A stretch of 20,000 nt of DNA from an uncultured virus (IMG/VR IMGVR_UViG_3300029920_000005) (lineage: Duplodnaviria; Heunggongvirae; Uroviricota; Caudoviricetes): the IMG/VR virus record IMGVR_UViG_3300029920_000005; one strand, written 5' to 3'. Within the stretch, counting starts at the first letter, position 1. Every line of letters starts with the position of its first letter. A program made the position numbers and the translations under genes. Below are positions 1-19,501 of this stretch, one piece after another. The notes under the pieces were generated by a model. It made no database searches and was not told the origin of the DNA. It was given only the letters and a program-made list of their open reading frames with translations.

Positions 1-214
1 CGACCCCGGCCCTGTTTTGACTTTGTCCGGAGCCACAATCAACCCGACTGCGCTGACCGTCGCCGGCAATAGCATTGCCATTGGTGCGGCAGTGCAGGTT
101 GTCGCATCGGGAGGGCTGACTGGCTGCCATTACCTGATTTCTATCACCGTACAGACGAGCAATCCTGACAAAGTGCTGGTGCTGAAAGCACTGCTACCGG
201 TCCTATCGACCTGA
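1..214 (+). CDS. Partial phage tail/baseplate-associated protein (5' truncated)
   Basis: The reading frame is open from the window edge to the TGA at 212-214. It is beta-rich and lies just upstream of the tail fibre gene. Confidence 0.55.
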   Translation, partial: DPGPVLTLSGATINPTALTVAGNSIAIGAAVQVVASGGLTGCHYLISITVQTSNPDKVLVLKALLPVLST

Positions 215-232
215 CGTAAATCAAGCCAATTC

Positions 233-284
233 AACCGCCTCCGGGCGGTTTTTCATTTCTACGGCCGCCAATAGGCGGTTTTTT
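233..284 (+). terminator. Two tandem rho-independent terminator-like hairpins
   Basis: AACCGCC-TCCG-GGCGGTT-TTT (233-253) and CCGCC-AATA-GGCGG-TTTTTT (265-284). Confidence 0.7.
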
Positions 285-297
285 ATTTGGGGATTAC

Positions 298-2235
298 ATG
301 AGACGGATCGAAACCTCGGTCGGGCAGCAAATTTATGAGTGGATGTGGTCTGCGCAAGCCCAGTACACCATGACCGCCATTGCCAAGGCGTGCGCGGCAT
401 TGTTTGGCACGAGCGAAACCGTAGTTAATGGCTTGACCTGCTCTGCGACCAGCCCCGCAACAATGACCGTGCAGATTGGTGCTGGCGAGATCTACCAGAT
501 AGAGCCGATCGAGGCGACCGCCTGTGGTACGTTGCCGCAAAACACGGCTTACAGCATCCTGAAACAGGGCATCCAGCTCGGCACGTACACGACCTCGACG
601 CTCGCCACCCCTGGCACCTCTGGCCAGTCGATCAATTATTTGATCGAAGCGCAGTACCAAGATCAGGATTTGAGTCTTGACCCGACGACCGGCAATAGCC
701 CTGTCGTGCTGCAGTTCTACGACGCCGCGACCCCGTCCTCGCCCTGGTCCGGCCCGAATAATGCCGGCACATCGAGCAATACCTTTCGCGACGGTATCGT
801 TGCATACCAGGTTAAGGCCGGCGTTGCCGCCGCTTCCGGCTCGCAAGTCACGCCGACCCCGGACACCGGCTATGTCGGCCTGTGGGTCGTTACTGTGCCA
901 TACGGCGCCACATCGCTGACCAGCGCCAATATCGCGCAATACGCCGGCGCCCCGATCCTGCAAGACAGCGTGCTGCAGATGCTCCTGAAGGGCAATGGCA
1001 ATTACGCCGTCGATGCCGGTGTCGCAAACGCGTATGTCGTTACTCCGACCGGCCCGGTGCCGGATGCATTGACCGACGGGCTGGAAGTGTCGTTCTATGC
1101 TGCGCACCCGAACACCACGGCCAGCACGCTGAACGCATGGGGTTCCGGCGCCAAGCCGCTGACCGGCATGGCCGGGGCTCTGCAGGGGGGTGAGATCGTC
1201 ACCGGCATGTACCGAGCCAAATATTCGACTGCGACTGGCGGCTTCCAGTTGATCGGGCAGGGTGCAGGCGCCCTGCAGGTCGCCCCCGCCACCCAGTCCG
1301 AGCACGCCGTGCAGATGGGACAGATTCAGGCGCAGGCCGGCACGGCTTTCACGTCAGCTGGTACGGCGCCGGCATATACGATTACGCCGACCCCTGCCGT
1401 TACCAACACCGCGCCAACCCGGCTGCGCGTTAAATTCCCATCGGCCGGCACGACGGGCAGTAATACGCTGGCGGCATCCGGGCAATCAGCGTTACCGCTG
1501 ATGCAGTACGCGCCCGGCGGGACATTGATCCCCGCCACTATCACCGCAGGCCTGTTGAGCGATTGCGAATGCGATGGTACGCATTGGATTGTGCTGGATC
1601 CCGTATCTGCGCCGGGCGGGTTTAGCGGGTACGGGACAATCTCTGCGTCGCGGTCGCTGACCGTCTCAGACATTGGCCAGGCGCTTTTCGCCAGCGCAAA
1701 TAACTGCACGCTCACACTGCCAACGCCGACGAGCTTGGGCGTGGTCAGTGGCGCGGCAGTCCTAATTTTTACAGATGGCGAAACGGGAACCGTTGTCACT
1801 GCCGGGTCTGGGGTAACCCTGAACGGCCCTGGCGGGGCGTCCAGCTCCATCACAATGAATAGCGGCCAATCCATGACGATTGTCGCGGTCGGGACGACTA
1901 CATGGCAGGTCGTCAGCTCAACCGCCTCGCTAGGGGCAAACGGAGATTTTGGCTCGTCGCTCGGCGGAGCCGGATACCAGAAGCTTCCGGGCGGGCTGAT
2001 TATTCAGTGGGGCTATGTGACGACAAATAGCTCAGGTGTTGCCACTTTTACACATCCAATTGCTTTCCCGAATAACAATTTCCGCGTCTTTGTTACGTAT
2101 CAATCCGGAATATTGACGGCAAATTTTGTCAACGGCGGGGGTGGAACGCTGACGGCGTCTACTGCATGCGTATCCAATGTATCGAATGCTGCAGTAAGTG
2201 GTGCGGTCGTAAACTTTTTTGTTATTGGAGACTAA
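298..2235 (+). CDS. Phage tail fibre protein
   Basis: 645 aa, rich in G/A/T/S. It has two internally similar modules (DAGVANAYVVTPT.../SAGTAPAYTITPT...) and a C-terminal GYQKLPGGLIIQWG motif typical of gp53-like fibre tips. Confidence 0.9.
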   Translation: MRRIETSVGQQIYEWMWSAQAQYTMTAIAKACAALFGTSETVVNGLTCSATSPATMTVQIGAGEIYQIEPIEATACGTLPQNTAYSILKQGIQLGTYTTSTLATPGTSGQSINYLIEAQYQDQDLSLDPTTGNSPVVLQFYDAATPSSPWSGPNNAGTSSNTFRDGIVAYQVKAGVAAASGSQVTPTPDTGYVGLWVVTVPYGATSLTSANIAQYAGAPILQDSVLQMLLKGNGNYAVDAGVANAYVVTPTGPVPDALTDGLEVSFYAAHPNTTASTLNAWGSGAKPLTGMAGALQGGEIVTGMYRAKYSTATGGFQLIGQGAGALQVAPATQSEHAVQMGQIQAQAGTAFTSAGTAPAYTITPTPAVTNTAPTRLRVKFPSAGTTGSNTLAASGQSALPLMQYAPGGTLIPATITAGLLSDCECDGTHWIVLDPVSAPGGFSGYGTISASRSLTVSDIGQALFASANNCTLTLPTPTSLGVVSGAAVLIFTDGETGTVVTAGSGVTLNGPGGASSSITMNSGQSMTIVAVGTTTWQVVSSTASLGANGDFGSSLGGAGYQKLPGGLIIQWGYVTTNSSGVATFTHPIAFPNNNFRVFVTYQSGILTANFVNGGGGTLTASTACVSNVSNAAVSGAVVNFFVIGD

Positions 2236-2237
2236 TT

Positions 2238-2795
2238 ATGGGACAAAAATTCGCAGCATACGACGCAAATGGCAATGTGACCGCGTTTTACGACAGCACC
2301 GACAGCCCGGTCCCGGCCGGTGTCAACGCAATTGAGATCACTGATACGCAGTGGCAGACGTGCCTGAATCAGGCAGGCTGGACGGTGGTCAGCGGGGTGT
2401 TGGTTGCGCCTCCCGCTCCAACGGCGGCTCAGTTACTCGCGCAAGCGCAGGTCGCGCAAATCACGAAATTGACCGCAGCATACGAAGCCGCAATCACCGC
2501 TCCGGTCAGTTATACGACGGTCGGCGGCGCGACCGCGACATTCACACAATCTGCGACGAATACGCAGAATTTGCAGAACGCCTTGGTCGCCAGCGCGAAA
2601 TCGCAGTCGTGGCCGCTTAATCTATGGCTCAATTCCAGCGGTCAGCCGGTAACGCCGTTCACCTATGCGGACCTGCAGGGCCTTGCAGCGGCAATGGAGG
2701 CTGCAGATACGCCGGAATACATGGATTTACTGACGAAAGTGGCTGCAGTGAACGCTGCGACCACGGTCGCGGCAGTGCAGTCCGTGACGTTCTGA
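2238..2795 (+). CDS. Tail fibre assembly/chaperone protein (DUF4376-like)
   Basis: ATG at 2238 follows GGAG. The MGQKFAAYDANGNVTAFYD...AIEITDTQWQ N-terminus and the TYADLQGLAAAM...ATTVAAVQSVTF C-terminus are typical of genes that follow tail fibres. Confidence 0.8.
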   Translation: MGQKFAAYDANGNVTAFYDSTDSPVPAGVNAIEITDTQWQTCLNQAGWTVVSGVLVAPPAPTAAQLLAQAQVAQITKLTAAYEAAITAPVSYTTVGGATATFTQSATNTQNLQNALVASAKSQSWPLNLWLNSSGQPVTPFTYADLQGLAAAMEAADTPEYMDLLTKVAAVNAATTVAAVQSVTF

Positions 2796-2821
2796 TCAGA
2801 CATCCCAGCAGCAAACAATAA

Positions 2822-2843
2822 CCCGCCGCGAGCGGGATTTTTT
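2822..2843 (+). terminator. Rho-independent terminator
   Basis: CCCGC-CGCGA-GCGGG-ATTTTTT. Confidence 0.7.
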
Positions 2844-2862
2844 ATGACAGAAATGAGGCGAA

Positions 2863-3108
2863 ATGACAATCACCGAGGTGCTTCTGTCCATCATGAGCGG
2901 GCTGCTGTCGATCCTGCTGGCTGCCATTGGCTGGTGGCTGGTCAACCTGCATGACAAGCACGAAAGGTTGCGCGCAGCGCACGAGGAATTGCGTGTCGAG
3001 GTAGCGGGCCAGTTCTTGAAAAAGGATGAGATCCGGGAGATGTTCAGTGAATTTAAGCGCGACCTCACGGAATTAATTGAGCGCGCAACTGGAAAGGGAA
3101 GGGAATGA
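2863..3108 (+). CDS. Holin-like/membrane protein (1 TM + coiled coil)
   Basis: N-terminal hydrophobic helix and charged C-terminus. Its stop overlaps the endolysin start (ATGA). Confidence 0.6.
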   Translation: MTITEVLLSIMSGLLSILLAAIGWWLVNLHDKHERLRAAHEELRVEVAGQFLKKDEIREMFSEFKRDLTELIERATGKGRE

Positions 3109-3569
3109 ACCAGACATTACTTGAAGCTGAATTGCGCAGGGACGAGGGTGTGCGTTACACGATCTATCTGGACACGGCCACGCCACCTCGGCGGACCGTA
3201 GGGGTTGGCCACAACATCGACGCAAAGCCACTGCCGGCCGGCTGGACCTGTCCGCTGACTGATGCGCAGGTCGACCAGTTGCTGGCCGAGGATCTGCAGT
3301 CTGTTTTCGCTGGCCTTGATGCGCATCTGCCATGGTGGCGCCAGCTTGACGATGTGCGCTCGCGCGTCATCGCGAACATGGCGTTCAACATGGGTACCGG
3401 CGCGCTACTTGGGTTCCCGCATGCGCTCGCTTGCATGCAGTCCGGCGACTATTCAGGGGCCGCTGCGCAGATGGAAGCTAGCGCCTGGTATCGCGAAGTT
3501 GGCGCGCGCGCCGTGCGTCTGTGCCAGGCCATGGCCACCGGCGTGATGCCGGACGAGCCAGCCGTCTAA
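3105..3569 (+). CDS. Endolysin, T4-like lysozyme (GH24)
   Basis: LRRDEG..IYLDT...TVGVGHN catalytic region, NMAFNMG motif, and WYREVGARA C-terminus. Confidence 0.92.
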   Translation: MNQTLLEAELRRDEGVRYTIYLDTATPPRRTVGVGHNIDAKPLPAGWTCPLTDAQVDQLLAEDLQSVFAGLDAHLPWWRQLDDVRSRVIANMAFNMGTGALLGFPHALACMQSGDYSGAAAQMEASAWYREVGARAVRLCQAMATGVMPDEPAV

Positions 3570-3594
3570 ACACATAATTTAATGTGTAAAACAC

Positions 3595-3615
3595 ACCCGC
3601 TTCGGCGGGTTTTTT
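3595..3615 (+). terminator. Rho-independent terminator (UUCG loop)
   Basis: ACCCGC-TTCG-GCGGGT-TTTTT. Confidence 0.8.
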
Positions 3616-3631
3616 CGTTTGTGGAGCCAAT

Positions 3632-4234
3632 ATGCCCGAATCCCTGCAGTCTTTTGACCTGGTCGACCTTGCGCAGTATACGAAAGAGGGCGCGTACTCG
3701 CCCACTGCCTCGAAGGACTTTCACTTGTTCTATGTTGGGCGTGATGACGTCCATGACATCCTGAAGCACGTTCTGTCCCGCGTCACCGTGAGCCTGTACC
3801 TCAACATGTTCGGCTACGACGATGACGAGCTGAACGAAATCATTATGGGCATCGTCCACGACCCGTCGATCACCTGCGTCATCACCCTGGACAAGTCCCA
3901 GGCCGGTGGCGTGCACGAAAAGCGTTTACTGGACTCCGACGCCGCGCGCGACCCGGTGGGCTTCAACACGCACTTTGTCATCGGCAATTCCGCAACCCAT
4001 CAGATCAGCCACACCAAGGGCTTTGTTGCTGACGGCAAGGTCGGAGGCGAAGGCTCAACCAACTGGAGCAACTCCGGCGAGGGCACGTTTGTCGTCAAGG
4101 GGCAGCCTGGCGGCATCGGCTACAAGGCGCAGAACAACACTCAAACCATTTTCACCTGTCCTGATGCGCTCGCCCGGTTCCAAGCCGAACTGCTGGCAGA
4201 ACACATCGCAGCACAGCGCAAAGCATCCACGTAA
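3632..4234 (+). CDS. Phospholipase D superfamily protein, single HKD (Nuc/Zucchini-like)
   Basis: HTKGFVAD (HxKxxxxD) followed by GSTNWS and a later QNN. GGAG RBS. Confidence 0.85.
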   Translation: MPESLQSFDLVDLAQYTKEGAYSPTASKDFHLFYVGRDDVHDILKHVLSRVTVSLYLNMFGYDDDELNEIIMGIVHDPSITCVITLDKSQAGGVHEKRLLDSDAARDPVGFNTHFVIGNSATHQISHTKGFVADGKVGGEGSTNWSNSGEGTFVVKGQPGGIGYKAQNNTQTIFTCPDALARFQAELLAEHIAAQRKAST

Positions 4235-4243
4235 GGAGCCGAA

Positions 4244-4474
4244 ATGCCTAAATTCGATCAGAAGTTCATCGGGGCCGCGCTGATTCTCGCCGCCTGGTAT
4301 GCGCTGGTGCTGCAGGGGTTGGCGCCGGTAACGCAGTTCATCGACACACTGCAGGTGGCGTTGGCCGGTCTGGGCGTATATCACGTCGCCAGTAATCGCC
4401 CGCCGCCCGCGACTACAGTCGCATCCGTGCAAATCTCACCCGCCCAGCAATCCACTCAGGAGTCCTCGCAATGA
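4244..4474 (+). CDS. Small 2-TM membrane protein, holin-like
   Basis: Two hydrophobic segments and an AAGGAG RBS. Confidence 0.6.
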   Translation: MPKFDQKFIGAALILAAWYALVLQGLAPVTQFIDTLQVALAGLGVYHVASNRPPPATTVASVQISPAQQSTQESSQ

Positions 4475-4905
4475 AAAAGATCCTCACCCTGATCGTCGTC
4501 GCATTCGCCTTTTGCCTGGCTGGCTGCGCCTCGCTACCGAAAGCGGCGACCGCTCAAACCCCGGCGCAAGTCGCCGCGCAGGTCTGCCCGTCACTGCAAT
4601 CGGTCGTCTCGGTGTTGTCCGTGCCGGGCGCCATCGATGCGTCCGACGCAGCCAATGTAGCCAAGGCTGCACCGGTCATCGCCTCGGTCTGCTACGCGCC
4701 TGCCGCCGCCACCGCCATCAACCTGAAGTCGTTGCAGGTCGACGCCGTGCCGGTATTGCTCAAAGCGATCCAGGCTGCGCCGAACATCTCTTCCAAGGAT
4801 AAGCAGGACGCTACACTCGGCATCGCCATCGCTCAGGCCGCGATTGCGCCAGTGATCGCTCAAGCCGAGGCGTCTGCGCCGCTGACAGCGAGTGCCGCAA
4901 AATGA
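4471..4905 (+). CDS. Lipoprotein (possible spanin-like)
   Basis: Signal peptide MKKILTLIVVAFAFC followed by lipobox LAGC. Ala-rich helical body with two further Cys. Confidence 0.8.
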   Translation: MKKILTLIVVAFAFCLAGCASLPKAATAQTPAQVAAQVCPSLQSVVSVLSVPGAIDASDAANVAKAAPVIASVCYAPAAATAINLKSLQVDAVPVLLKAIQAAPNISSKDKQDATLGIAIAQAAIAPVIAQAEASAPLTASAAK

Positions 4906-5024
4906 TCCACGACATCCTCATTGCAGTCGGTGGTTTCGTCGGCGGCGTCATTGCGCTGGCCGTTGTTGGTCCGCTCGTAGCTGCGCTGTTCGGCGGCTGG
5001 GTTATGTGGAGGGGTAGCAAATGA
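4902..5024 (+). CDS. 40-aa hydrophobic membrane peptide (not in ORF track)
   Basis: MIHDILIAVGGFVGGVIALAVVGPLVAALFGGWVMWRGSK. It has ATGA overlaps with both neighbours (4902-4905 and 5021-5024). Confidence 0.7.
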   Translation: MIHDILIAVGGFVGGVIALAVVGPLVAALFGGWVMWRGSK

Positions 5025-5818
5025 GCAAAATCCGACTCGCATTCTCGGGGTCGGGCTTCCGGTTGGGGGCGCACATCGGCGCCCTGAAAGCCGTGCTCGA
5101 TGCCGGATATGACGTGGTTGAGGTCGCGGGCACGTCCGGTGGCTCGATCTGCGCCGCATTGTTTGCCGCCGGCATGCCGATTGTCGACATGGTTGAGCTC
5201 GTCTCTACGATGGACTGGTCGCCGCTGCTGACGTTCGATCCGTGGTCCGGTCTGCGCAATGGCGGCTACTGCTCGGGCGACAAGCTGCTGGCGTTTCTGC
5301 ACGGTAAAACCGGTGGCAAAACGTTCGCCGAATTGTCGATCGACCTGAAAATTATCGCGTCCGACCTGGGCGGCGAAAAGCAGGTTGTATTCAGTAAGGC
5401 AACCACGCCTGACATGCCGATTGCCCTGGCCGCGCGCGCCAGCGCGTCGATCCCGTTCGTCTACACTCCGGTCAAATATCAAGGCATGACCCTGGTGGAT
5501 GGCGGGTGCTGTGACAACCTGCCCGCCGACGCACTGACGGTCGACGCCGCGCCGCGCCTCGGCGTTTATCTCCTGTCGGACGATCCGCCGGCTCAAAGCA
5601 TGGATCTGGCCACGATGGCCGGGCGGGTGATCGATTTGATGTTGGCGAGCAATGAAGATTTGCATGTCGCCAGCGCAGAAAAATCCGGCGCGCGAATCGT
5701 GCGCGTTGAAACCGCGTACGCAAACTCGCTGGATCGAAATATGCCGGCGGCGATCCGTCAGCGCCTGTTTGATGATGGATATGCAGCGGCCGACGCGGCA
5801 CTGAAAGGCATGGCATGA
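5021..5818 (+). CDS. Patatin-like phospholipase
   Basis: SGSGFR oxyanion loop, GTSGG nucleophile elbow, ASASIP motif and DGG catalytic Asp motif. Confidence 0.92.
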   Translation: MSKIRLAFSGSGFRLGAHIGALKAVLDAGYDVVEVAGTSGGSICAALFAAGMPIVDMVELVSTMDWSPLLTFDPWSGLRNGGYCSGDKLLAFLHGKTGGKTFAELSIDLKIIASDLGGEKQVVFSKATTPDMPIALAARASASIPFVYTPVKYQGMTLVDGGCCDNLPADALTVDAAPRLGVYLLSDDPPAQSMDLATMAGRVIDLMLASNEDLHVASAEKSGARIVRVETAYANSLDRNMPAAIRQRLFDDGYAAADAALKGMA

Positions 5819-6165
5819 GCAAGCTGCGCGAAGTAGCCCCGGGCTTGATGCGGTTCAAGTGTCCGGGGTGCGGTGGCTTCCATGATATCCCGGTTCGGAG
5901 CGCGTCTGAGCCTGGCTCGCAATGGATCTGGAATGGCAGTGTCGACAGGCCGACCCTGACACCGAGCGTACTGGCTCGATCCGGTCACTACATAGACCCG
6001 GGCAGTTGCTGGTGCAAGTACTACGCAGAGCATCCGGAAAAGACTCCGCATTTCAAGTGCGGAATCTGTCACTCATTCGTCACTGACGGATATATCCAAT
6101 ATCTGACCGATTGCACCCACGCGCTCGCAGGCCAGACTGTAGCGCTTCCTGACATCGAGGAGTGA
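5815..6165 (+). CDS. DUF6527-like Cys/His-rich protein
   Basis: CPGC..H, WNGSVDRPTLTPSVL and CHSFVTDGYIQYLTDCTHALAG motifs. Confidence 0.75.
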   Translation: MSKLREVAPGLMRFKCPGCGGFHDIPVRSASEPGSQWIWNGSVDRPTLTPSVLARSGHYIDPGSCWCKYYAEHPEKTPHFKCGICHSFVTDGYIQYLTDCTHALAGQTVALPDIEE

Positions 6166-6437
6166 ATGTGAAAAAGTACAAAATCAAAAGAATGGCCGCC
6201 ACGCTGGTGCTGCTGCTGATCGGCTTCGCGGTCGGCTGGGACGTGGGCGCATGGCGCGCACCAGTGGTGCGGACGGTCATCCGGTTCGTGCAGCCACTGC
6301 CGACACCGTCGTGTCCGGTCATTAAGTCAGCGGCGACGCCGGCTAAGCATGCCCACAGGCACCATCGGCATCATCATTGGCGCGCGGTCGCGTGCGTCAA
6401 TCCGCCCGGCTCAGCGCCAGCCGTATCCCCTCGCTGA
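6162..6437 (+). CDS. Membrane-anchored protein with Pro/His-rich tail
   Basis: GTG start overlaps the upstream stop (GTGA). Basic N-terminus plus one TM, and an HAHRHHRHHH tract. Confidence 0.55.
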   Translation: MNVKKYKIKRMAATLVLLLIGFAVGWDVGAWRAPVVRTVIRFVQPLPTPSCPVIKSAATPAKHAHRHHRHHHWRAVACVNPPGSAPAVSPR

Positions 6438-6780
6438 CATTCCCGTCACCCAGGCGCTTCGCTGCCTCAAGGCTCGCGGCGTCAAGGTACACATTGACCC
6501 GCTTGCCCCCCTCCATCTCTGCTGGCCGCCCGACTGTAGGCCACTCGATTTCGTCCAGCTTGTCGCGCCAGTAGTCCGCCGTGCCGGGCGTGCGGTCAAA
6601 GCGGTGGAACGCGATCTGGCGATTGCTATAGGTCAGTACGGCGGCGAGCTTCTGCCCGTCGAGGTCGCTCCGATTGACGAGCGCGACAAAAGCCTCGGAG
6701 GCGGCGCCTTGGTCAGCCGTAATGGTCTTCGACTCAGGCAGTACCTGCTGATCGAAGGTGCGCAAATAGACTCGATACAT
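6397..6780 (-). CDS. Hypothetical protein with C-terminal RHH-like DNA-binding segment
   Basis: GGAG RBS. The C-terminal GRPAEMEGGKRVNVYLDAASLEAAKRLGDGNVSEGIRLAL has a strand-helix-helix pattern. Confidence 0.7.
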   Translation of the reverse strand: MYRVYLRTFDQQVLPESKTITADQGAASEAFVALVNRSDLDGQKLAAVLTYSNRQIAFHRFDRTPGTADYWRDKLDEIEWPTVGRPAEMEGGKRVNVYLDAASLEAAKRLGDGNVSEGIRLALSRAD

Positions 6781-6827
6781 GGCGATCTCCGGCGAAAAGC
6801 CCCGGCCTCCCGGGGCGTAATATGGTT

Positions 6828-7109
6828 TTATTTTTGAGTCGCAGCTTTTGCGAAAGCCTTCCCGTACCGGATCGCTGCGGCGGCATCAAAATTCGCGCCT
6901 CCCTCACTCAAAAATTCAAGCTGCGCTTCCAGTGCGGCCTCGTCGACCGCGTACCCGCTTTCGATTTGAGCCTCAGCCGCGTACTGCCCGGCCAGCTGCT
7001 CGGCGGTAAATTCGATGCCCTGCATGCCCTCGGTAAATGGCGCATCGTTGATCAGGTCTACTACGGCGGCAAAGCTTGCGGCGCTGCGGATCGATAGGCT
7101 GGCGTACAT
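6828..7109 (-). CDS. Hypothetical acidic protein
   Basis: ATG at 7109 follows GGAGAATCGC. 93 aa. Confidence 0.7.
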   Translation of the reverse strand: MYASLSIRSAASFAAVVDLINDAPFTEGMQGIEFTAEQLAGQYAAEAQIESGYAVDEAALEAQLEFLSEGGANFDAAAAIRYGKAFAKAATQK

Positions 7110-7193
7110 GCGATTCTCCAAATTTCGTGCGGCATATGCCGCGCTGCCTGTTCGGCAGTGAAGAGGAGGCCCGGTTTCCCGGGCTGTTTTCGA

Positions 7194-7535
7194 TTATTGG
7201 GTTACTTCGGTGGCGACGATCTCGCTGGGGGCGCCAAGCTGCGCAACCATGTCGTCTTCGGACTTGTAACCAGCGTCTTGTGCTGCGATATCGCGGGCCT
7301 GTTGAGCGGTTTCGGCTTCGATCAGGCCGAAATCGCAGGCGTTTGCCGTGACCTGCCAGGTCTTCATTTGATTACCAAGAGCGACGACGCCGTCTTCGTC
7401 AACGATGCGCAGACCGCGCCAGCCCAGATTGCTTTCCAGCTCCGCCAATGCCGATTTTGCTTCTGCCAGGGTTTCGAAATCACCTTCAGCTACGGGTTCG
7501 AACTGAAAGCTGGTGCGCGATTGAATGGTGAACAT
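7194..7535 (-). CDS. Hypothetical acidic protein
   Basis: AAAGGA RBS. First gene after the promoter at about 7610-7637. Confidence 0.7.
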   Translation of the reverse strand: MFTIQSRTSFQFEPVAEGDFETLAEAKSALAELESNLGWRGLRIVDEDGVVALGNQMKTWQVTANACDFGLIEAETAQQARDIAAQDAGYKSEDDMVAQLGAPSEIVATEVTQ

Positions 7536-7609
7536 GATGGCGATCCTTTATCTGATCTTCCCGGAACCCGCCGGTGCGGTGGATGGTGTTGTTTGCCGTC
7601 CATGAGTTA

Positions 7610-7637
7610 ATTATATACACACTAAATTATTTTGCAA
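7610..7637 (-). promoter_or_regulatory. Sigma70 promoter for the leftward 3-gene operon
   Basis: The minus strand reads TTGCAA-16 nt-TATAAT within an AT-rich island. Confidence 0.65.
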
Positions 7638-7676
7638 GAATTATGTATGTATAAAACAAAATATTCTGAGGTGCGC

Positions 7677-8246
7677 ATGAAGAAAGGCAAAGTCTCGAAG
7701 CTCAGACCGACGCAATGCGTCGTCGGCCTGGCTGAGGTCGCGGTCAAAAAGGCCGAGCTGTCGGCGCTATCGCCGCGCAAGCTGGATGAATACTTGCTGG
7801 CGCACCCGATTCCGTGCGTAGTCGGCCCGGGCGAGCATTTACACCTGGTCGATCATCATCACATGGGGCTGGCGCTGACGCAGATGAATCACCCTGACTG
7901 CTACATCGAGGTCGTGCATGACCTGTCGACCGTGCCGGAGGGTAAATTCCATCGCGTGATGCAGGCGCTGGATCTACTGTACCTGCGCGCTGATGGGCAG
8001 GATTTGCCGTTGTACCGACTACCGAAGCGCCTGGCCGACCTGGCTGATGATCCATACCGGTCGCTGGCCGGGTTCGTGCGCAAGCGCGACGGGTTCGTCA
8101 AAGTGCCGGTGCCGTACACTGAGTTCGCATGGGCTGACTTTTTCCGCTCGCGAGTGCGTATCGACGATTGGAGCGCGGCGATTGAGCGGGCGTTAGAACT
8201 GGCGGTGTCGATTGAGGCGCAGTATCTTCCGGGGTTTGCTGGTTAA
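7677..8246 (+). CDS. ParB-like nuclease-domain protein (ParBc_2 family)
   Basis: LRPTQ..VG, GP...LVDHHH, DDPYRSLAG and EFAWADFFR motifs. ATG at 7677 follows GAGGT. Confidence 0.85.
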   Translation: MKKGKVSKLRPTQCVVGLAEVAVKKAELSALSPRKLDEYLLAHPIPCVVGPGEHLHLVDHHHMGLALTQMNHPDCYIEVVHDLSTVPEGKFHRVMQALDLLYLRADGQDLPLYRLPKRLADLADDPYRSLAGFVRKRDGFVKVPVPYTEFAWADFFRSRVRIDDWSAAIERALELAVSIEAQYLPGFAG

Positions 8247-8437
8247 AGCCTGGCGTACCCATGCGCGCGCCGGGTCTTGTCAATCTCGTTCATTCGTTCG
8301 CGGGAATAGGGTTCGGTGGCAGTGCCGCCGCTGCGCGACCACCGGCCACCCCATGATCGAATGATCACGGTCTGGCCGAATAAATCGTGTTGCACAGCGA
8401 CGGCGTAATACCGTGACGGGCTGATATAGATACGCAT
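8243..8437 (-). CDS. Stand-alone WGR-domain protein
   Basis: RYYAVAVQHDLFGQTVIIRSWGG...RRAHGY matches the WGR pattern. The long upstream extension in the ORF track is probably not coding. Confidence 0.7.
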   Translation of the reverse strand: MRIYISPSRYYAVAVQHDLFGQTVIIRSWGGRWSRSGGTATEPYSRERMNEIDKTRRAHGYARL

Positions 8438-8560
8438 GATGATTGCACCAGAGGGGGAGTGGGCGCATTCAGCATGGCAGGGTGATCGGGCTTTGGGAAA
8501 GCTCAAGATGGCGGAATTGCGGGAAATTACGTGAAAGTGTTGCGTTATAACCCATTGTTT

Positions 8561-8632
8561 TTGCTCGCTTGAGCATCTGCGCAACTGAGTATTTGAGCGT
8601 CTGCGCATTTGATCAATTGAGCATTTGCGCAT
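8561..8632. repeat. Nine tandem 8-bp repeats, putative centromere (parS/parH-like)
   Basis: TTGCTCGC TTGAGCAT CTGCGCAA CTGAGTAT TTGAGCGT CTGCGCAT TTGATCAA TTGAGCAT TTGCGCAT. Confidence 0.75.
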
Positions 8633-8874
8633 TACGGATCGCGGCCGCTCGGGTTTTTGATGGGGCCAAGGCCATCGGCGGCACGCAGCAGGTTTAGGCC
8701 TTGGACGATTAGCGATTGCATCGGCTCGTGACGGCTGGTCGCCCAATTCTTGATGGCCTGGTGATCGTCGAAGTAAAGCCAGACGCCGACTTTCACTTTG
8801 TCCGGTTTGGCGATCTCGGCGCGCGCTGGCGCATCATCATCAACCAGGAACGATTTCAGGTCTATTTCCGGCAT
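8632..8874 (-). CDS. Small ribbon-helix-helix partition adaptor (ParG-like)
   Basis: 80 aa, overlapping the parA end. Flexible N-terminus, then a KVKVGVWL strand and two helices (MQSLIVQGLNLL). Confidence 0.7.
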   Translation of the reverse strand: MPEIDLKSFLVDDDAPARAEIAKPDKVKVGVWLYFDDHQAIKNWATSRHEPMQSLIVQGLNLLRAADGLGPIKNPSGRDP

Positions 8875-9488
8875 AGTTCCTCCTTAACCCACGCCCATAG
8901 TGCGGTCATTTCAAGCGCCGCCTTGTCGCGCGGCTTGTATTCGTTGACCGATAGCCCGAGGGAAATAGCGTCCTCAAACGGCAACCGGTCGCCAATCCAG
9001 CACGGGATCACCGCGCCCAGTCCAGCCAGGTCAGCAGCGGTCTTATGCGCCTGATCCCGGCGACGCGCATGCACCCGGGTCAGTAGGAAATAGGGCGCCT
9101 TGCCCGCCGCGCGCGCCATTTTCGCCGAAGCTTGCACGCGGGCTATTTCGAGCGCCGCAGACGGCCTGACCGGGATAATGATCATGTCGGCAGCTTGGGC
9201 GATCTGCGAGGACTCGTGTGCAAGGTGCGGCGGGCTATCAATGACCGCCAGGCTGAAGCCCTTGTTGTGCGCGGTGTGGATCGCCAGCTGCAACTCAGAC
9301 GCATGCACCGCGGTGACGACCGGCGTTTCGGATACGCGCTGGCGCGCCCAGCTGGATGCGGATTTCTGCGGGTCGGCGTCCAGTAGGATGACGCGCTCGC
9401 CATCGTCCTGTGCGCGGCAGCTAGCGTGAATGGCCGTGGTGGATTTCGTTCCGCCGCCTTTCTGGCCGAAAAATGCGATCGTTTTCAT
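8862..9488 (-). CDS. parA: ParA-family ATPase, short type Ib
   Basis: Deviant Walker A QKGGGTKST, LLDADPQ.S, VIDSPP and ADMIIIPVRPS. There is no N-terminal HTH. Confidence 0.9.
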   Translation of the reverse strand: MKTIAFFGQKGGGTKSTTAIHASCRAQDDGERVILLDADPQKSASSWARQRVSETPVVTAVHASELQLAIHTAHNKGFSLAVIDSPPHLAHESSQIAQAADMIIIPVRPSAALEIARVQASAKMARAAGKAPYFLLTRVHARRRDQAHKTAADLAGLGAVIPCWIGDRLPFEDAISLGLSVNEYKPRDKAALEMTALWAWVKEELCRK

Positions 9489-9646
9489 GCGGGCACCTTG
9501 GTGACGTACAGTTTGAAAATGACAACCTGTTTGTGCTGGTCGACGAAATAATTGATGTGTTCGATCCGCTGGTCAGGCGCTTTGAAATCCTTGGCGTAGT
9601 GATCGACCACTTCCGGGAGCGGAACTTCCTCATAGATGATGTCCAT
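9485..9646 (-). CDS. Hypothetical 53-aa protein coupled to parA
   Basis: AAAGGAAACCC-ATG start. Its stop overlaps the parA start. Confidence 0.6.
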   Translation of the reverse strand: MDIIYEEVPLPEVVDHYAKDFKAPDQRIEHINYFVDQHKQVVIFKLYVTKVPA

Positions 9647-16005: not shown

Positions 16006-16920
16006 TCACGCCGCCACCAGCATCGCCTGAATTACATCCCGCGCGACCGGCGGGCAGACTGCATTGCCGAGCATGTGCATGGCCAACTTTGAAGTTTCCG
16101 GCAGGATGTAATCGGCAGGGAATCCCATCGCCGCCCTGGCCTCTTGCACACTGAGCATGCGCATCCGGTCGCCGTCGACAATCCCCCATCGATCTCGGGT
16201 GGTGATCGTGCCGATCGGGCGGGCGATGCTCCGGCCGCCGCGCTCGTTGCCGTAGTACGCCGTCAAGAACCGCTCACCGTGCTGCCGGCGCCCGTTCTCG
16301 ATCCGCTCCAGTGTCGCAGCGGCTCGCCCGGGCTTCTCGATCTGCGACCACTTCCCGCCGTCGAAGTCGATGATGCCGGACACTGGGACGTGCTCACGCT
16401 GTGGCAGGTTGAGCATCAGCGGGTACTGACTGCGCGTGCCGACGATAAAAAGCCGCTCACGGTTCTGCGGTACACCATGGTCAGCAGCGTCAACGATATG
16501 CGGAGACAGGCAGTAGCCCAGCGCTTCCATGGCCATACGCCATGCTGGGTACAGTGACCACTGCACAAATTCAGGCACATTTTCGATGATGCAGAACTGC
16601 GGACGGTGGTACTCGGCGGCAGAGACGACTGCCCAGGCTGTCGAGCGGCTGGCATCGTGCTGTGGGTTGCCGTGCTCTTTGCCGCGGGCTTTGCTGTGGC
16701 CTTGGCAGCAAGGGCTTGCCATCAGCAGGTCATGTGCCGGCACTTCCATCCACCGCGCCTGATGCAGGTCTTGGCAGGCATGCCGCGCGCCCGGATGATT
16801 GGCTTCGTGAATCTCAACCGCCGATTGCCAGTGGTTTGCGGCCCAGACGACATCGATGCCGGCCATGCGGGCGCCGGTGCTGAAGCCTCCAGCGCCGGCG
16901 AACAGGTCGATTGCTTTCAT
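16006..16920 (-). CDS. DNA (cytosine-5) methyltransferase, orphan
   Basis: Motifs DLFAGAGG (I), SPCCQ (IV), ENV (VI), PQNRER (VIII), MGFP and LGNAV (IX-X). Confidence 0.93.
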   Translation of the reverse strand: MKAIDLFAGAGGFSTGARMAGIDVVWAANHWQSAVEIHEANHPGARHACQDLHQARWMEVPAHDLLMASPCCQGHSKARGKEHGNPQHDASRSTAWAVVSAAEYHRPQFCIIENVPEFVQWSLYPAWRMAMEALGYCLSPHIVDAADHGVPQNRERLFIVGTRSQYPLMLNLPQREHVPVSGIIDFDGGKWSQIEKPGRAAATLERIENGRRQHGERFLTAYYGNERGGRSIARPIGTITTRDRWGIVDGDRMRMLSVQEARAAMGFPADYILPETSKLAMHMLGNAVCPPVARDVIQAMLVAA

Positions 16921-16979
16921 GCGGGTTCCAGATATGAAGAAGCCCGCATCAGCGGGCTTGGTGGGTTAGGGTGGGGCGG

Positions 16980-17237
16980 TCAGACAGGCGCATTTTCCTG
17001 CGCTTTCACGGGCTTGCCGCAGACCGGGCAGAACGCGCACATGAACGACGTTTCTTTGCCTTTTCGGTAGCCGGACTTGTCCGCCTTCACCGTGTAGATC
17101 AGGCGAGGAACCTCATCCAATGTGGCCCCGAACACCATTGCGATTGATTGACACTCGACCGTCGCAGGCTTGCCCAACTTCTCGCTGTAATGCTTGGCCA
17201 GCTTGGGTTCGAGGTCGCGCATACATGTGCATTGCAT
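16980..17237 (-). CDS. Zn-ribbon-like phage protein
   Basis: ATG follows GGAGAAC; MQCTC...FCPVCGK; 85 aa. Confidence 0.75.
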   Translation of the reverse strand: MQCTCMRDLEPKLAKHYSEKLGKPATVECQSIAMVFGATLDEVPRLIYTVKADKSGYRKGKETSFMCAFCPVCGKPVKAQENAPV

Positions 17238-17253
17238 ATGGTTCTCCAGACAT

Positions 17254-17275
17254 AAAAAATCCCGCCGGGCGGGAT
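17254..17275 (-). terminator. Terminator after the DGR remnant
   Basis: The minus strand reads ATCCCGC-CCG-GCGGGAT-TTTTT. Confidence 0.75.
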
Positions 17276-17448
17276 CAGGGTTTTCGGTAAGTCTTGCGTA
17301 TGTCCAAACTGATTGACCGCCCGCGTCGCCGCAGTGCATTGGCCAGTCTGCACCGGTCGTGATGGCTGTTCGTCGCCTGACCGAGCAATCCGAAGTACGA
17401 ATTTGCCGTTTCAAACAGGTCGACTTTATCGATGTCAACCACGCGCCG
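17275..17448 (-). pseudogene. 3' remnant of a DGR reverse transcriptase
   Basis: Startless frame RRVVDIDKVDLFETANSYFGLLGQATNSHHDRCRLANALRRRGRSISLDIRKTYRKP*. NSY.GLL is the RT thumb motif. No YxDD is present. Confidence 0.7.
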
Positions 17449-17608
17449 AATTGGCGCGATAGATCAAGACAACAAGCTCCAAGCATTCGCCGTCCAGCCG
17501 CTTCCCGTGGTCGCGGTAATTGCGCGGGAATTGACTGGCAAGCTTTTTGACTAAAATGGTGAGGTCGTAGGTCACCTTGTAGATCGGCAATTCGGAATGC
17601 AAAGACAT
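17435..17608 (-). pseudogene. avd: 5' half of DGR accessory protein Avd (four-helix bundle)
   Basis: MSLHSELPIYKVTYDLTILVKKLASQFPRNYRDHGKRLDGECLELVVLIYRANSARG*. LPIYK..YDL, PR.Y..G and I.RAN are Avd-family hallmarks. Only 57 aa. Confidence 0.8.
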
Positions 17609-17620
17609 AAGTCAAAACCT

Positions 17621-17638
17621 GCGCGGGCGAGCCCGCGC
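17621..17638. other. GC-rich perfect hairpin/cruciform downstream of the DGR target
   Basis: GCGCGGG-CGAG-CCCGCGC, 16 nt past the target stop codon. Confidence 0.7.
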
Positions 17639-17654
17639 TTAAATGGATGAAGTG

Positions 17655-18260
17655 CTAAATGAACAATCTGCGGACGGCCAGCGCGCGCACCTCGTAGTCC
17701 TTGCTGATGCCGCGTGTGGTGCCATCATAGAAGTCCTGAACGTATGCGTAGAACGGGCTGTACTGCGTGCTGGTCATGTAGCAGCCGGGCTCGATGGCAT
17801 GCTCGCCGCCTTCCTGGAACCCCGGGATGGCGGTCTGGGCCGGGCTATCGGGTGTGTACGGGTATTCCCCGGTCGTCGGGTTGTCTCCATCGCGCCAGGT
17901 GCAATAGTTTTCGTCAGTGGTCGGCTTGAAGTCGCGGTAGATCATTTCGATCTGGTCACGAGCCGGAATGTGTCAGTCGTCGAAACCGCCGATGCGCAAA
18001 GCGCGAACGGTCTTGGCGATTTCGCTACCGGCCTCGATCATGGCCGAGGTGTTGGCCGCGCCGTCGATGCAACTGCGCGCGCCAGTCACATTCTGGCCGT
18101 ACTCCCCCCACGCGCCGCGCAGACGGCCTTCTTTGCCGGAAACGATGACGGCGTACTCTTCTCCATCCAGTGTGTAGCGGCGGCCAAGAAAGCCGCCCTG
18201 GAATGCTTCGCCGATGGATTGGGGCAGCTCGCTGGCGGCGACGTCTTGAATCTTGATCAT
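17655..18260 (-). pseudogene. DUF1566/CLec-fold DGR target protein interrupted by an in-frame TGA
   Basis: The two ORFs join in frame: GGFDD-TGA-HIPARDQIE-MIY, where the usual motif is DW.IP. The C-terminus is STQYS...QDFYDG....K...RALAVRR. Confidence 0.85.
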
Positions 18261-18279
18261 GATGGGTCCCTATGGGCGT

Positions 18280-18300
18280 AAAAAATCCCGCAATCGCGGG
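18280..18300 (-). terminator. Terminator-like hairpin upstream of the DGR target
   Basis: The minus strand reads CCCGC-GATT-GCGGG-ATTTTTT. Confidence 0.65.
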
Positions 18301-18388
18301 CTTGAATTTCATACCCCCGCGCGCTTCGTCCGAATGGACGCCGGCGCGCTGCATGGAACCGGTGAGGGACCGGGCGGGGCGGTGTGGG

Positions 18389-18541
18389 TCAGGCTGATTT
18401 GAGCTCGTTATCGCGCTGATGTTGGGTTGCTTCGCGCTGGGCATCCTCGATCTCTTTCGCCCTGGCTGCACGGTACAGCGCACTCAGGAGTTGGAGCCGG
18501 ACAAATCCTTGTTCTTCCTGTTCCTGCTGCTTGTCGTTCAT
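18389..18541 (-). CDS. Hypothetical 50-aa protein (not in ORF track)
   Basis: GGAGACAAC-ATG start; MNDKQQEQEEQGFVRLQLLSALYRAARAKEIEDAQREATQHQRDNELKSA. Confidence 0.5.
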   Translation of the reverse strand: MNDKQQEQEEQGFVRLQLLSALYRAARAKEIEDAQREATQHQRDNELKSA

Positions 18542-18601
18542 GTTGTCTCCATTTCTTGCGGCATTGCGCGATCCAGTTGGTACTGCGTTGTTGCCTAAGC
18601 C

Positions 18602-19501
18602 TCATGCGCCTTCAAGACCTCCGAGCGCCTCGATCAATCCATCGACCAGGTCGCCCAGCTCCTCGACCATCAGCGTGAACGTGGCTTCAAACAGGCTGGC
18701 GCTGTCGTCGCCCGCCTGGCTGGCTTCATCCTGTAGCACATCCAGAAACTGAATGCGCTTGAGTTGCAGCGTGTCGGTCAGCACAAAGCGCACGCGCTCG
18801 TTCCAGATCAATCCGAGCTTCGTAACCTGCTTGCCGGTGGCGATGTGCTGGCGAATTTCATCCGAGGTCAGATCCATGCGAACGCAGCGGATTACCGCGC
18901 CGTTTTCGCTCGGGTCGCGCAGCTCGACTTCGGCATCCAGCTCAAAACCTTCTGGCGCCTCGCCCGCTGCCAGCCAATCGGTCATGGCGGTGTGCGGCGC
19001 CAGCTTGGTGCGCGGCAGGGCCGCCGGGAAAGGTGGCAACGCCTCACGCAGCTTGCTGACCAGCGCTTCCGCCTTGGTGGACGTGCCCGAGTCGACCATC
19101 AGCCAGCCGCGCCGGTTGTCGATGTAGGCGCTCAGGCGGCTTTCCCGGGTGAGCGCGCGCGGCAACAGGTCGTCGGTGACTTGTTCTTTCAGCGCCGATT
19201 TTTCCTTGCGGCCTACGCTGCGATGCTCGCGCTGTTCGATCTCCAGCGCCTTCTCGTCGACGGCGGCGCGGATCGTCACTACTGGCAGCACCTTGTCCTC
19301 GCGTTTTAGCGAGACCAGCAGGCAGTCGCGGGCCTTGAATACCGGGCTGCCGACGTGGCTTGCCGGCCAGACCCATCCCTCGGCGTACCAGTCGAGGCCG
19401 GCGCATTTGGTGAACGGCGATTTTTCCAGCGATTCGGACAGGGCCGCGCCGTCGACCGGGGCGGACAGGCGGAAAATTGATAATTGCTTGAACCAGGTCA
19501 T
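18602..19501 (-). CDS. rdgC: Recombination-associated protein RdgC
   Basis: WFKQL..FRL, EDKVLP, VGRKEK..LKEQVTDDLLPRA, LREAL, GKQVTKLGLIW and F LM..EL motifs. Confidence 0.93.
   Translation of the reverse strand: MTWFKQLSIFRLSAPVDGAALSESLEKSPFTKCAGLDWYAEGWVWPASHVGSPVFKARDCLLVSLKREDKVLPVVTIRAAVDEKALEIEQREHRSVGRKEKSALKEQVTDDLLPRALTRESRLSAYIDNRRGWLMVDSGTSTKAEALVSKLREALPPFPAALPRTKLAPHTAMTDWLAAGEAPEGFELDAEVELRDPSENGAVIRCVRMDLTSDEIRQHIATGKQVTKLGLIWNERVRFVLTDTLQLKRIQFLDVLQDEASQAGDDSASLFEATFTLMVEELGDLVDGLIEALGGLEGA

What the first reader, a model, noticed from the sequence alone, without database searches (positions are those of the whole stretch)
17254..18260. Collapsed diversity-generating retroelement: target-hairpin-avd'::'RT with TR deleted
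Seen in sequence, in order on the minus strand: a DUF1566/CLec-like gene ending ...GCCGTCCGCAGATTGTTCATTTAG, a perfect GC hairpin (17621-17638), a 57-aa ORF with Avd N-terminal motifs (17608-17435), a startless frame with an RT-thumb-like tail (NSYFGLL...KTYRKP, to 17275), and a terminator. Established: DGRs are commonly arranged target(VR)-hairpin-avd-TR-RT. Inference: a single deletion removed the 3' half of avd, the template repeat and the RT catalytic core, freezing the element. The target sits in the early region near rdgC, not in the tail module, so the diversified protein was probably not a receptor-binding fibre. The ORF track misses both remnants.
Basis: partly seen in the sequence, partly recalled or inferred. 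Interest (0 to 1): 0.85.

Follow-up and report, generated by a model that had tools for sequence, protein, structure and literature searches.

The report
Dead diversity-generating retroelement in a phage
A temperate phage from peat carries the wreck of a targeted-hypermutation system (a diversity-generating retroelement) whose reverse transcriptase and template were cut out by one deletion, while close relatives keep the intact, still-varying system.

Summary
On the minus strand lie a DUF1566/Lcl_C (C-type-lectin-like) gene (18260..17655), a 104-nt variable region (17768..17665), a 7-bp GC hairpin (17638..17621), the first 56 codons of avd (17608..17441), the last 55-58 codons of a DGR reverse transcriptase (17451..17275) and a terminator. 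A related phage (L011=L012=L031) has the intact cassette: target1-target2-avd-TR-RT. The window's avd piece is 31/56 identical to its Avd (E 9e-22), the RT piece 49/55 identical to RT residues 330-384 (E 7e-34). About 1.38 kb is missing (avd 3' half, TR, RT core). No TR or RT core is found in the window or in two sister contigs.

The target gene carries an in-frame TGA at a conserved Trp, seen in 4 of 4 runs. The gene is a hybrid: target1 body with the target2 VR end, so target2 (0.67 kb) is also gone. The same collapsed junction occurs in a sister lineage that keeps both targets.

The VR bears adenine-specific scars. It is a decayed member of a known, Magia-like phage DGR family: ordinary in kind, a clean case of DGR loss.

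The parts
17655..18260 (-). DGR target gene, now a pseudogene. It is a 201-codon DUF1566/Lcl_C C-type-lectin-like protein, and a hybrid: the body is orthologous to 'target1' of intact relatives, the 3' end is of 'target2' type.
   Evidence: Translation. Pfam Lcl_C E 1.2e-5. 161/201 identical to L011 target1, E 6e-125. Model pLDDT 95.8 and Z 12.2 to 8q4e. The tail ends RRLFI as in target2 proteins; the four closest target1 orthologues (P0004, P0006-P0008) end RTIHI[VI]H.
17973..17975 (-). In-frame TGA replacing a conserved Trp codon (residue 96)
   Evidence: That column is W in 47 of 54 aligned homologues, F in 6 and L in 1. TGA is an ordinary stop in 5 of 10 Pfam-supported genes of the window. 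Contigs identical to the window across this site occur in 4 of 4 runs laid.
17665..17768 (-). Variable region (VR), 104 nt, encoding the C-terminal ligand-binding face
   Evidence: Aligns without gaps to the L011 TR at 84.6%. Of 16 mismatches, 13 are at TR adenines. It is the only place where the window and G001 differ within 9.57 kb.
17670..17691 (-). GC-rich, adenine-free 3' end of the VR (IMH-like), identical in the L011 TR, VR1 and VR2
   Evidence: Alignment A4. It was used as the search pattern.
17621..17638 (-). GC hairpin (7-bp stem, 4-nt loop), 26 nt after the end of VR/TR homology; the DGR target-recognition hairpin
   Evidence: The same stem follows VR2 in L011, and a different 8-bp/4-nt hairpin follows VR1.
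17435..17608 (-). avd remnant: codons 1-56 of Avd, then Gly and TGA created by the junction
   Evidence: 31/56 identical, E 9e-22, to the 118-aa L011 Avd, which hits bAvd PF22296 at E 2.1e-11 and NF033474 at E 2.4e-16.
17441..17451 (-). Deletion junction. In this 11-nt stretch the avd-frame homology (to 17441) and the RT-frame homology (from 17451) overlap.
   Evidence: Alignments A2 and A3. The blastn match starts at window 17451 = L011 3879. Frames.
17275..17451 (-). Reverse-transcriptase remnant: the last 55-58 codons (RT residues 327-384) and the stop. The catalytic core is absent.
   Evidence: 49/55 identical, E 7e-34. One search gives the same for G001 and G002 (residues 326-384 only). 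The L011 RT has RVT_1 at E 1.1e-17 over residues 90-308.
17258..17276 (-). Terminator-like stem-loop plus T-run directly after the RT stop codon
18287..18300 (-). Terminator-like hairpin plus T-run just upstream of the target gene (context only). An annotated terminator sits at the same place in phage Magia.

Best explanation
This is an inactivated diversity-generating retroelement (DGR) in the early-left operon of a temperate phage from peat (order on the minus strand: RdgC, target, DGR remnant, C5 methylase, integrase).

The ancestral cassette, still intact in related phages, was target1(VR1)-hairpin-target2(VR2)-hairpin-avd-TR-RT. In that cassette the RT, with Avd, copies the TR RNA into cDNA, misreading adenines. 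The cDNA then replaces the VR, guided by the GC-rich VR end and the hairpin.

Three lesions are visible here.
(1) One deletion of about 1.38 kb joined avd codon ~56 to RT codon ~327, out of frame. It removed the avd 3' half, the TR and the whole RT catalytic core. A sister lineage (G001/G002) shares it, so it came first.
(2) A crossover inside the shared VR sequence joined a target1 body and VR1 5' part to the VR2 3' end. This removed target2 (about 0.67 kb).
(3) A TGG-to-TGA change truncates the remaining target at residue 96.

Shown: the homologies, the junction, the absence of TR and RT core in the sequence available, and the adenine-specific VR scars. Inferred: the order of events, and that the element can no longer diversify.
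For: Intact relative and homology. L011 carries the full cassette. The fragment homologies are E 9e-22 for Avd and E 7e-34 for RT; the target is 80% identical to L011 target1.

Length arithmetic. The L011 cassette, from target1 start to RT stop (1016-4055), is 3040 bp. The window span 18260-17275 is 986 bp. The difference of 2054 bp equals the 671-bp VR1-VR2 spacing plus about 1383 bp between avd codon 56 and RT codon 327.

No TR or RT core. No second VR-like copy lies in the window or G001. G001 and G002 hold only one VR and RT residues 326-384, whereas G003 holds TR + 2 VR + full RT.

VR scars. In L011, VR2 differs from the TR at 10 sites, all 10 at TR adenines. The window VR differs at 16 sites, 13 at adenines. 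The window VR and the G001 VR2 differ at 15 sites, 14 where the L011 TR has A (Fisher p 3e-7).

Window versus G001. There are 19 mismatches in 9567 bp, all within 17710-17781; 9490 bp downstream have none.

The junction is not an assembly artefact. It is in the window, in three IMG/VR contigs, and in contigs bridging 17441-17451 in 4 of 4 runs laid.

Frozen versus active. G001, L007 and L008 are identical, VRs included. In the intact lineage, P0004 vs P0008 and P0005 vs P0078 each differ at 12 of 203 residues, all inside the VR (residues 170-189 and 169-191).
Against: Genome coverage is incomplete. The collapsed lineage is seen only as the 20-kb window plus contigs that CheckV rates 31% and 39% complete. 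A second DGR or TR elsewhere in the phage or its host cannot be excluded.

The intact lineage is in the same samples. An L011-type VR2 was seen in 2 of 4 runs laid. The window's GC-rich VR end and hairpin stem are conserved, so trans-homing is mechanistically conceivable.

The data are coarse. Only consensus contigs (Logan) were available, and these drop rare variants. Absence of VR micro-heterogeneity is therefore not shown.

The three identical sister contigs may represent one population.

A database protein, P0009, matches the window's allele exactly over residues 1-158, with W at the TGA position. The nonsense allele may therefore be polymorphic, or that gene call may have used another code.

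No intact element of the window's own lineage was found. The parent is 77-82% identical in DNA, so the exact breakpoints and any microhomology are approximate.
Confidence: 0.9

Rival explanations
1. Orphan VR still diversified in trans. The cassette lost its own RT and TR, but the VR, its GC-rich end and the hairpin remain. A co-resident intact DGR of the same family supplies cDNA, so the 15 VR differences between the window and G001 arose after the collapse.
For: The VR end (22 nt) is identical to that of the L011 TR and VRs, and the hairpin stem is the same as behind L011 VR2. The intact lineage co-occurs in 2 of 4 runs laid. All differences between the window and G001 in the shared 9.57 kb fall in or beside the VR. 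Non-adjacent targets are documented for DGRs (Wu et al. 2018, PMC5758913, passages read).
Against: The gene body upstream of the VR is a different gene in the two lineages: target1 type in the window, target2 type in G001, with 69% DNA identity to G001's own target1. A crossover inside the VR therefore explains the cluster without new mutagenesis.

The window VR and the G001 VR2 share two non-adenine differences from the L011 TR, at positions 15 and 54. L011-type homing would have erased these.

The sister contigs show no VR variation. The target also carries a nonsense codon.
Confidence: 0.05
2. Frozen but still useful. The deletion fixed a favourable VR allele and the lectin-like protein is still made. 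In the window lineage this would be by TGA read-through, or as two separate polypeptides (95 aa and 96 aa, the second from the ATG at 17945).
For: The sister lineage keeps both target genes intact, without stops. An in-frame ATG at 17945 opens a 96-aa ORF covering the VR half. P0009 shows the same allele with Trp at that site. Loss of DGR activity under stable conditions is predicted in theory (bioRxiv 10.64898/2026.02.18.706561, passages read).
Against: TGA is a normal stop in 5 of 10 Pfam-supported genes here. The predicted fold is one compact domain spanning residues 7-199, so half-proteins are unlikely to fold. No read-through signal was tested.
Confidence: 0.1
3. Artefact or chance. The avd/RT resemblance is coincidental, or the junction is a metagenome mis-assembly.
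For: Direct profile searches of the two fragments are weak: Avd E 0.0022, and nothing for the RT piece.
Against: Pairwise E-values are 9e-22 and 7e-34 against proteins of an intact DGR at the syntenic position. The junction was recovered in independent contigs and in 4 of 4 runs at depth 13-60.
Confidence: 0.01

Closest known systems
DGR of Burkholderia phage Magia (MT701587; Magiavirus) and the related cassettes in Pseudomonas, Burkholderia and Shewanella phages
   Same: The RT is 60-63% identical to the RT of the window's intact relative in 9 phage records.

In Magia the cassette sits in the early-left operon: RecT, AAA ATPase, regulator, terminator, 'lectin fold domain protein; potential DGR target', hypothetical protein, Avd-like, RT, then integrase. 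This is the same place and order as here.

The genome announcement notes a potential DGR with RT and Avd and short target reading frames (PMC7883833, passages read).
   Different: Magia's cassette is annotated as complete. The window lacks the TR, the RT core and half of avd, has one hybrid target instead of two, and that target has a nonsense codon. Whether Magia's DGR is active was not tested in the passages I read.
Bordetella phage BPP-1 DGR (Mtd/bAvd/TR/bRT), the prototype
   Same: The parts and logic are the same: a C-terminal VR on a C-type-lectin-fold protein, a GC-rich VR end followed by a GC hairpin with a 4-nt loop, Avd, an adenine-rich TR and an RT. The BPP-1 mechanism is from established knowledge, recalled. 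The model matches Mtd 1yu0 at Z 5.1 and TvpA 2y3c at Z 5.4. Five Bordetella phage records are among the RT hits.
   Different: BPP-1 diversifies a tail-fibre tip protein in the structural module. Here the targets are roughly 200-aa single-domain proteins in the early operon, with no N-terminal hydrophobic signal visible by eye (no predictor was run). The element is also dead.
Category 'd' / CLec2 DGR targets (DUF1566, exemplified by Legionella LdtA) of Wu et al. 2018
   Same: These are DUF1566-type VRs. About half of that category are short proteins consisting of the DUF1566 domain alone (PMC5758913, passages read). The best structural match is the Legionella Lcl C-terminal domain.
   Different: LdtA is a surface lipoprotein of a bacterium. 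These proteins are phage early-operon proteins. I did not align the VR to the CLec2 class.

Membership tests
Diversity-generating retroelement (functional element) | Reverse transcriptase with a catalytic RVT core | tested here: not met
   Only the last 55-58 residues remain. They give no Pfam or NCBIfam hit. No other RT match was found in G001 or G002. In the relative's RT the RVT_1 domain covers residues 90-308, and all of that is deleted here.
Diversity-generating retroelement (functional element) | Template repeat (TR) matching the VR except at adenines | tested here: not met
   No second copy lies in the window or G001 (blastn-short). G001 and G002 each hold one copy, the VR, whereas the intact G003 holds three. 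About 60% or more of the phage genome was not available.
Diversity-generating retroelement (functional element) | VR whose differences from the TR are confined to TR adenines | tested here: met
   Tested against the TR of the relative L011. Of 16 mismatches, 13 are at adenines and 3 at non-adenines, 2 of the latter shared with the sister VR. In L011 itself the figure is 10 of 10 at adenines.
Diversity-generating retroelement (functional element) | GC-rich VR 3' end (IMH-like) followed by a GC hairpin | tested here: met
   Alignment A4. Hairpin of 7 bp with a 4-nt loop, z -2.5, conserved behind L011 VR2.
Diversity-generating retroelement (functional element) | Intact accessory protein Avd (four-helix bundle, about 105-120 aa) | tested here: not met
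   Only residues 1-56 of 118 are retained. NF033474 matches profile positions 1-50 of 104, at E 0.0022.
Lcl_C / DUF1566 (C-type-lectin-like fold) | Pfam PF07603 at the gathering score | tested here: inconclusive
   26.1 bits against a cut-off of 34.9, E 1.2e-5. PF07603 is precomputed for most of the 72 homologues found.
Lcl_C / DUF1566 (C-type-lectin-like fold) | Fold matches a solved Lcl C-terminal domain or C-type lectin | tested here: met
   Model pLDDT 95.8. 8q4e_A at Z 12.2, rmsd 2.8 over 124 residues, with dozens of CTLDs at Z 5-6.5. Foldseek gives E 1.1e-3 and prob 1.00.

The most novel reading that the evidence does not exclude
The interest lies in the family more than the wreck. A conserved cassette of temperate proteobacterial phages places a DGR in the early (recombination and DNA-modification) operon. 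It hypermutates two small, apparently signal-less C-type-lectin-like proteins rather than a tail fibre. These could be intracellular variable binders used in phage-host or phage-phage conflict (anti-defence or superinfection exclusion).

The cassette was seen in 6 further IMG/VR loci and in isolated phages such as Magia.

On this reading the peat lineage records how such a system is lost: first an RT/TR deletion, then a VR-by-VR crossover that fuses the targets, then a nonsense mutation. Intact and dead lineages coexist in the same samples.
Probability: 0.2. Interest if true: 0.7.

Novelty: new member of a known kind. Interest (0 to 1): 0.3.

Why it matters
DGR loss has been modelled (bioRxiv 10.64898/2026.02.18.706561, passages read). 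My two literature searches for defective, inactive, degenerate or remnant DGRs found no described natural case with the parent form beside it.

This locus gives such a case. The deletion can be mapped to an 11-nt junction. The lesions can be ordered across sister lineages. Intact relatives in the same peat samples still vary only in their VRs.

It also shows that VRs made from one TR act as islands of homology, where targets recombine.

For annotation, it warns that short avd-like and RT-tail ORFs after a lectin-fold gene mark dead DGRs, which RT-based DGR finders will miss.

The function of early-operon DUF1566 targets remains open.

Tried and rejected
- Direct profile searches of the fragments were nearly blind: Avd E 0.0022 and nothing for the RT tail.
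- DNA search of the cultured-phage collection found only short, 68-84% partial matches in 9 records.
- The window's own assembly is not held.
I used blastn-short instead.
- The 22-nt VR-end pattern in genome contigs gave 11 loci from unrelated GC-rich taxa. None of the 11 encodes a relative of the RT, Avd or targets by tblastn, so I treat them as chance matches.
- The RT-tail pattern in metagenome contigs found one contig, identical to L011. No intact element of the window's own lineage was found.
- Only Logan contigs, not raw reads, were available. Parts without cover and depth differences there are not interpreted.
- The search of earlier findings returned nothing.
- PADLOC gave no hit for either target protein.
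- Foldseek alone was just above its 0.001 E-value line.
- Trans-diversification, read-through and artefact readings were considered; see the rival explanations.
- Supplementary tables of Wu et al. 2018 and of the Roux et al. preprint were not opened. They may list Magia-like DGRs or partial DGRs.

Full report
**What is in the sequence.**
Read on the minus strand, the region holds these features in order:
- A 201-codon gene, 18260..17655, with an in-frame TGA at codon 96.
- A 7-bp GC hairpin with a 4-nt loop, 17638..17621. It folds at -10 kcal/mol as DNA, and 4 of 200 shuffles fold as well.
- A 57-codon ORF, 17608..17435.
- A frame that ends ...KTYRKP* at 17275.
- A terminator-like stem plus T-run, 17276..17258.

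Read through the TGA, the first gene hits Pfam Lcl_C/DUF1566 at E 1.2e-5, below the gathering score. The 57-aa ORF hits NCBIfam DivGenRetAVD only weakly: E 0.0022, profile positions 1-50 of 104. The last frame hits nothing.

**The intact relative settles it.**
A 22-nt adenine-free stretch from the VR end was scanned through IMG/VR. It matched five contigs.

Two of them, L011 and L012, are identical over 7606 bp. A 63-kb metagenome contig, L031, is also identical to L011. These contigs carry three copies of the pattern about 670-680 bp apart. L011 reads as follows:
- target1, 1016-1627, with VR1 and its own hairpin.
- target2, 1681-2292, with VR2 and a hairpin with the same stem as the window's.
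- avd, 2338-2694.
- An AAC-rich TR, 2861-2964.
- A 384-aa RT, 2901-4055.

The L011 Avd hits bAvd at E 2.1e-11 and NF033474 at E 2.4e-16. The RT hits RVT_1 at E 1.1e-17.

The window's pieces match these proteins:

| Window piece | L011 counterpart | Identity | E-value |
|---|---|---|---|
| 57-aa ORF | Avd residues 1-56 | 31/56 | 9e-22 |
| RT tail | RT residues 330-384 | 49/55 | 7e-34 |
| Target gene | target1 | 161/201 | 6e-125 |

**The junction.**
In the avd frame, homology runs to codon 56, window position 17441. In the RT frame, it starts at the Ile-Arg-Arg-Val-Val stretch, window position 17451, which equals L011 3879. The two homologies overlap by 11 nt, and no unaligned sequence lies between them. 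This is what a single deletion gives, possibly at a short patch of similarity. The two pieces are out of frame, so no fusion protein results.

The deletion removed about 1.38 kb in L011 coordinates: avd codons 57-118, the TR, and RT residues 1 to about 326, including the whole RVT_1 domain.

The lengths add up. The L011 cassette is 3040 bp against 986 bp here. The difference of 2054 bp equals the 671-bp VR1-VR2 spacing plus about 1383 bp.

**A second lesion: the target is a hybrid.**
The body of the window's gene is target1-like, 80-85% identical to P0004 and P0006-P0008. All four of those end ...VRTIHI[VI]H. The window's gene instead ends ...VRRLFI, as target2 proteins do. Everything from 17709 downstream is identical to the target2 flank of the sister lineage.

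The nearest held record, G001, equals L007 and L008 at 100%. It has two DUF1566 genes followed by the same hairpin, avd remnant and RT remnant.

Window 8220-17786 matches G001 1-9567 with 19 mismatches. All 19 lie in 17710-17781, and 9490 bp downstream have none. Upstream, the gene bodies differ: the window has 69% DNA identity to G001's first gene and no counterpart of its second.

The simplest account is a crossover inside the VR. That sequence is shared because both VRs were written from one TR. The crossover joined a target1 body and the 5' part of VR1 to the VR2 3' end, and lost target2. The collapsed avd/RT junction is common to both lineages, so it is the older event.

**A third lesion: the nonsense codon.**
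The TGA replaces a Trp that is W in 47 of 54 homologues, F in 6 and L in 1. TGA ends 5 of 10 Pfam-supported genes in the window, so recoding is unlikely.

Contigs identical to the window across the site occur in 4 of 4 peat-metagenome runs laid. A T>C at 17973 (TGG on the coding strand) is seen only on contigs of a divergent allele, in 2 of those runs.

One database protein, P0009, matches the window's allele exactly over residues 1-158, with W at that site. Its last three residues differ. I could not look at its DNA.

**The VR is a real DGR product.**
- L011 VR2 differs from its TR at 10 sites, and all 10 are TR adenines.
- The window VR differs from that related TR at 16 sites. Of these, 13 are at adenines. 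Of the 3 others, 2 are shared with G001's VR2, as expected if both were written from a slightly different TR that is now lost.
- The window VR and G001's VR2 differ at 15 sites. Of these, 14 are where the L011 TR has A (Fisher p 3e-7). They fall on codon positions 1 and 2, with one exception.

**Is anything left that could run it?**
- No second VR-like copy lies in the window or in G001.
- A search with the RT protein and the TR DNA found only RT residues 326-384 and one VR in G001 and G002. The intact G003 gave the full RT and three repeat copies.
- These contigs are 31% and 39% complete by CheckV, so the rest of the phage and the host are unseen.
- The three sister contigs are identical, VRs included.
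- In the intact lineage, database variants differ only in the VR. P0004 vs P0008 have 12 differences, all at residues 170-189. P0005 vs P0078 have 12 differences, all at residues 169-191.

This fits 'dead versus active', but consensus contigs cannot show rare variants. An L011-type VR2 is present in 2 of the 4 runs laid, so the two lineages share habitats. Trans-homing cannot be excluded. The retained non-adenine differences argue that L011's TR has not overwritten this VR.

**The protein and the setting.**
The target model (54-sequence alignment, pLDDT 95.8, pTM 0.92) gave these structural matches:

| Structure | Entry | Z |
|---|---|---|
| Legionella Lcl C-terminal domain | 8q4e | 12.2 (rmsd 2.8, 124 residues) |
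| Bacteroides fimbrial protein | 4eps | 11.8 |
| Many C-type lectin domains | various | 5-6.5 |
| DGR variable protein TvpA | 2y3c | 5.4 |
| DGR variable protein Mtd | 1yu0 | 5.1 |

The window is a temperate-phage segment. It carries a tail fibre, lysozyme, a patatin-like protein, a ParB-like nuclease, a ParA-like ATPase and an integrase. A minus-strand early operon follows, with a C5 methylase, the remnant, the target and RdgC.

The same cassette (two DUF1566 genes, avd, RT) occurs in six further IMG/VR loci. One of them lies between an AAA_23 ATPase and a PAPS-reductase-like gene. Isolated phages carry an RT 60-63% identical, in 9 records.

In Burkholderia phage Magia the annotated order is RecT, AAA ATPase, regulator, terminator, lectin-fold 'potential DGR target', hypothetical protein, Avd-like, RT, then integrase. 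Its announcement mentions a potential DGR (PMC7883833, passages read).

Wu et al. 2018 (PMC5758913, passages read) place DUF1566-type VRs in their category 'd'. Half of that category are short single-domain proteins.

**Verdict.**
It is extended by the two-target ancestry, the VR crossover and the nonsense codon.

In kind this is a decayed member of a known DGR family. Two literature searches found no described natural example of a mapped DGR collapse beside its intact form, but DGR inactivity and loss are discussed. Interest is modest.

The open and more interesting question is what early-operon, apparently cytoplasmic DUF1566 targets do. No signal peptide predictor was run; that judgement is by eye.

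Noticed in passing
L011:1016-4055 (also L012, L031); L043-L048: A conserved phage DGR cassette with two tandem, roughly 200-aa DUF1566 targets, each with its own VR and hairpin, then avd, TR and RT. It lies in the early, DNA-metabolism region, not the tail module. Six further IMG/VR loci and isolated phages (Magia, Pseudomonas, Shewanella) share it.
   Followed up: partly
window 17665-17709 (crossover interval) and 17710-17786: VRs written from one TR act as homology islands. The window/G001 mosaic boundary lies inside the VR, and target1 and target2 have been fused there.
   Followed up: partly
L005:10083-10874 (G001 first DUF1566 gene): G001's first DUF1566 gene differs from the L011 TR at many non-adenine positions in its C-terminal region. 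It therefore does not look like a VR of this TR family, and it may come from another DGR or be a non-diversified paralogue.
   Followed up: no
window 5021-6165 (+): A patatin-like phospholipase (Pfam E 5e-31; PADLOC phospholipase effector E 1.3e-8) is followed by a DUF6527 protein. They lie between the lysis genes and the integrase and may be a moron or defence cargo.
   Followed up: partly
window 7632-9488: A ParB-like nuclease (PF08857, E 6e-46), a weak WGR-domain ORF and a ParA/MinD-like ATPase sit next to the integrase, giving partition-like genes in an integrase-bearing phage.
   Followed up: no
window 18287-18300 (-): A terminator-like hairpin plus T-run lies directly upstream of the target gene. 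An annotated terminator sits at the same place in phage Magia, which suggests the cassette is a separately controlled unit inside the early operon.
   Followed up: no
window 16900-18700 in runs X1-X4: At least three lineages coexist in the same peat metagenomes: window type, G001 type and intact L011 type. The assembly graph branches at the VR.
   Followed up: partly
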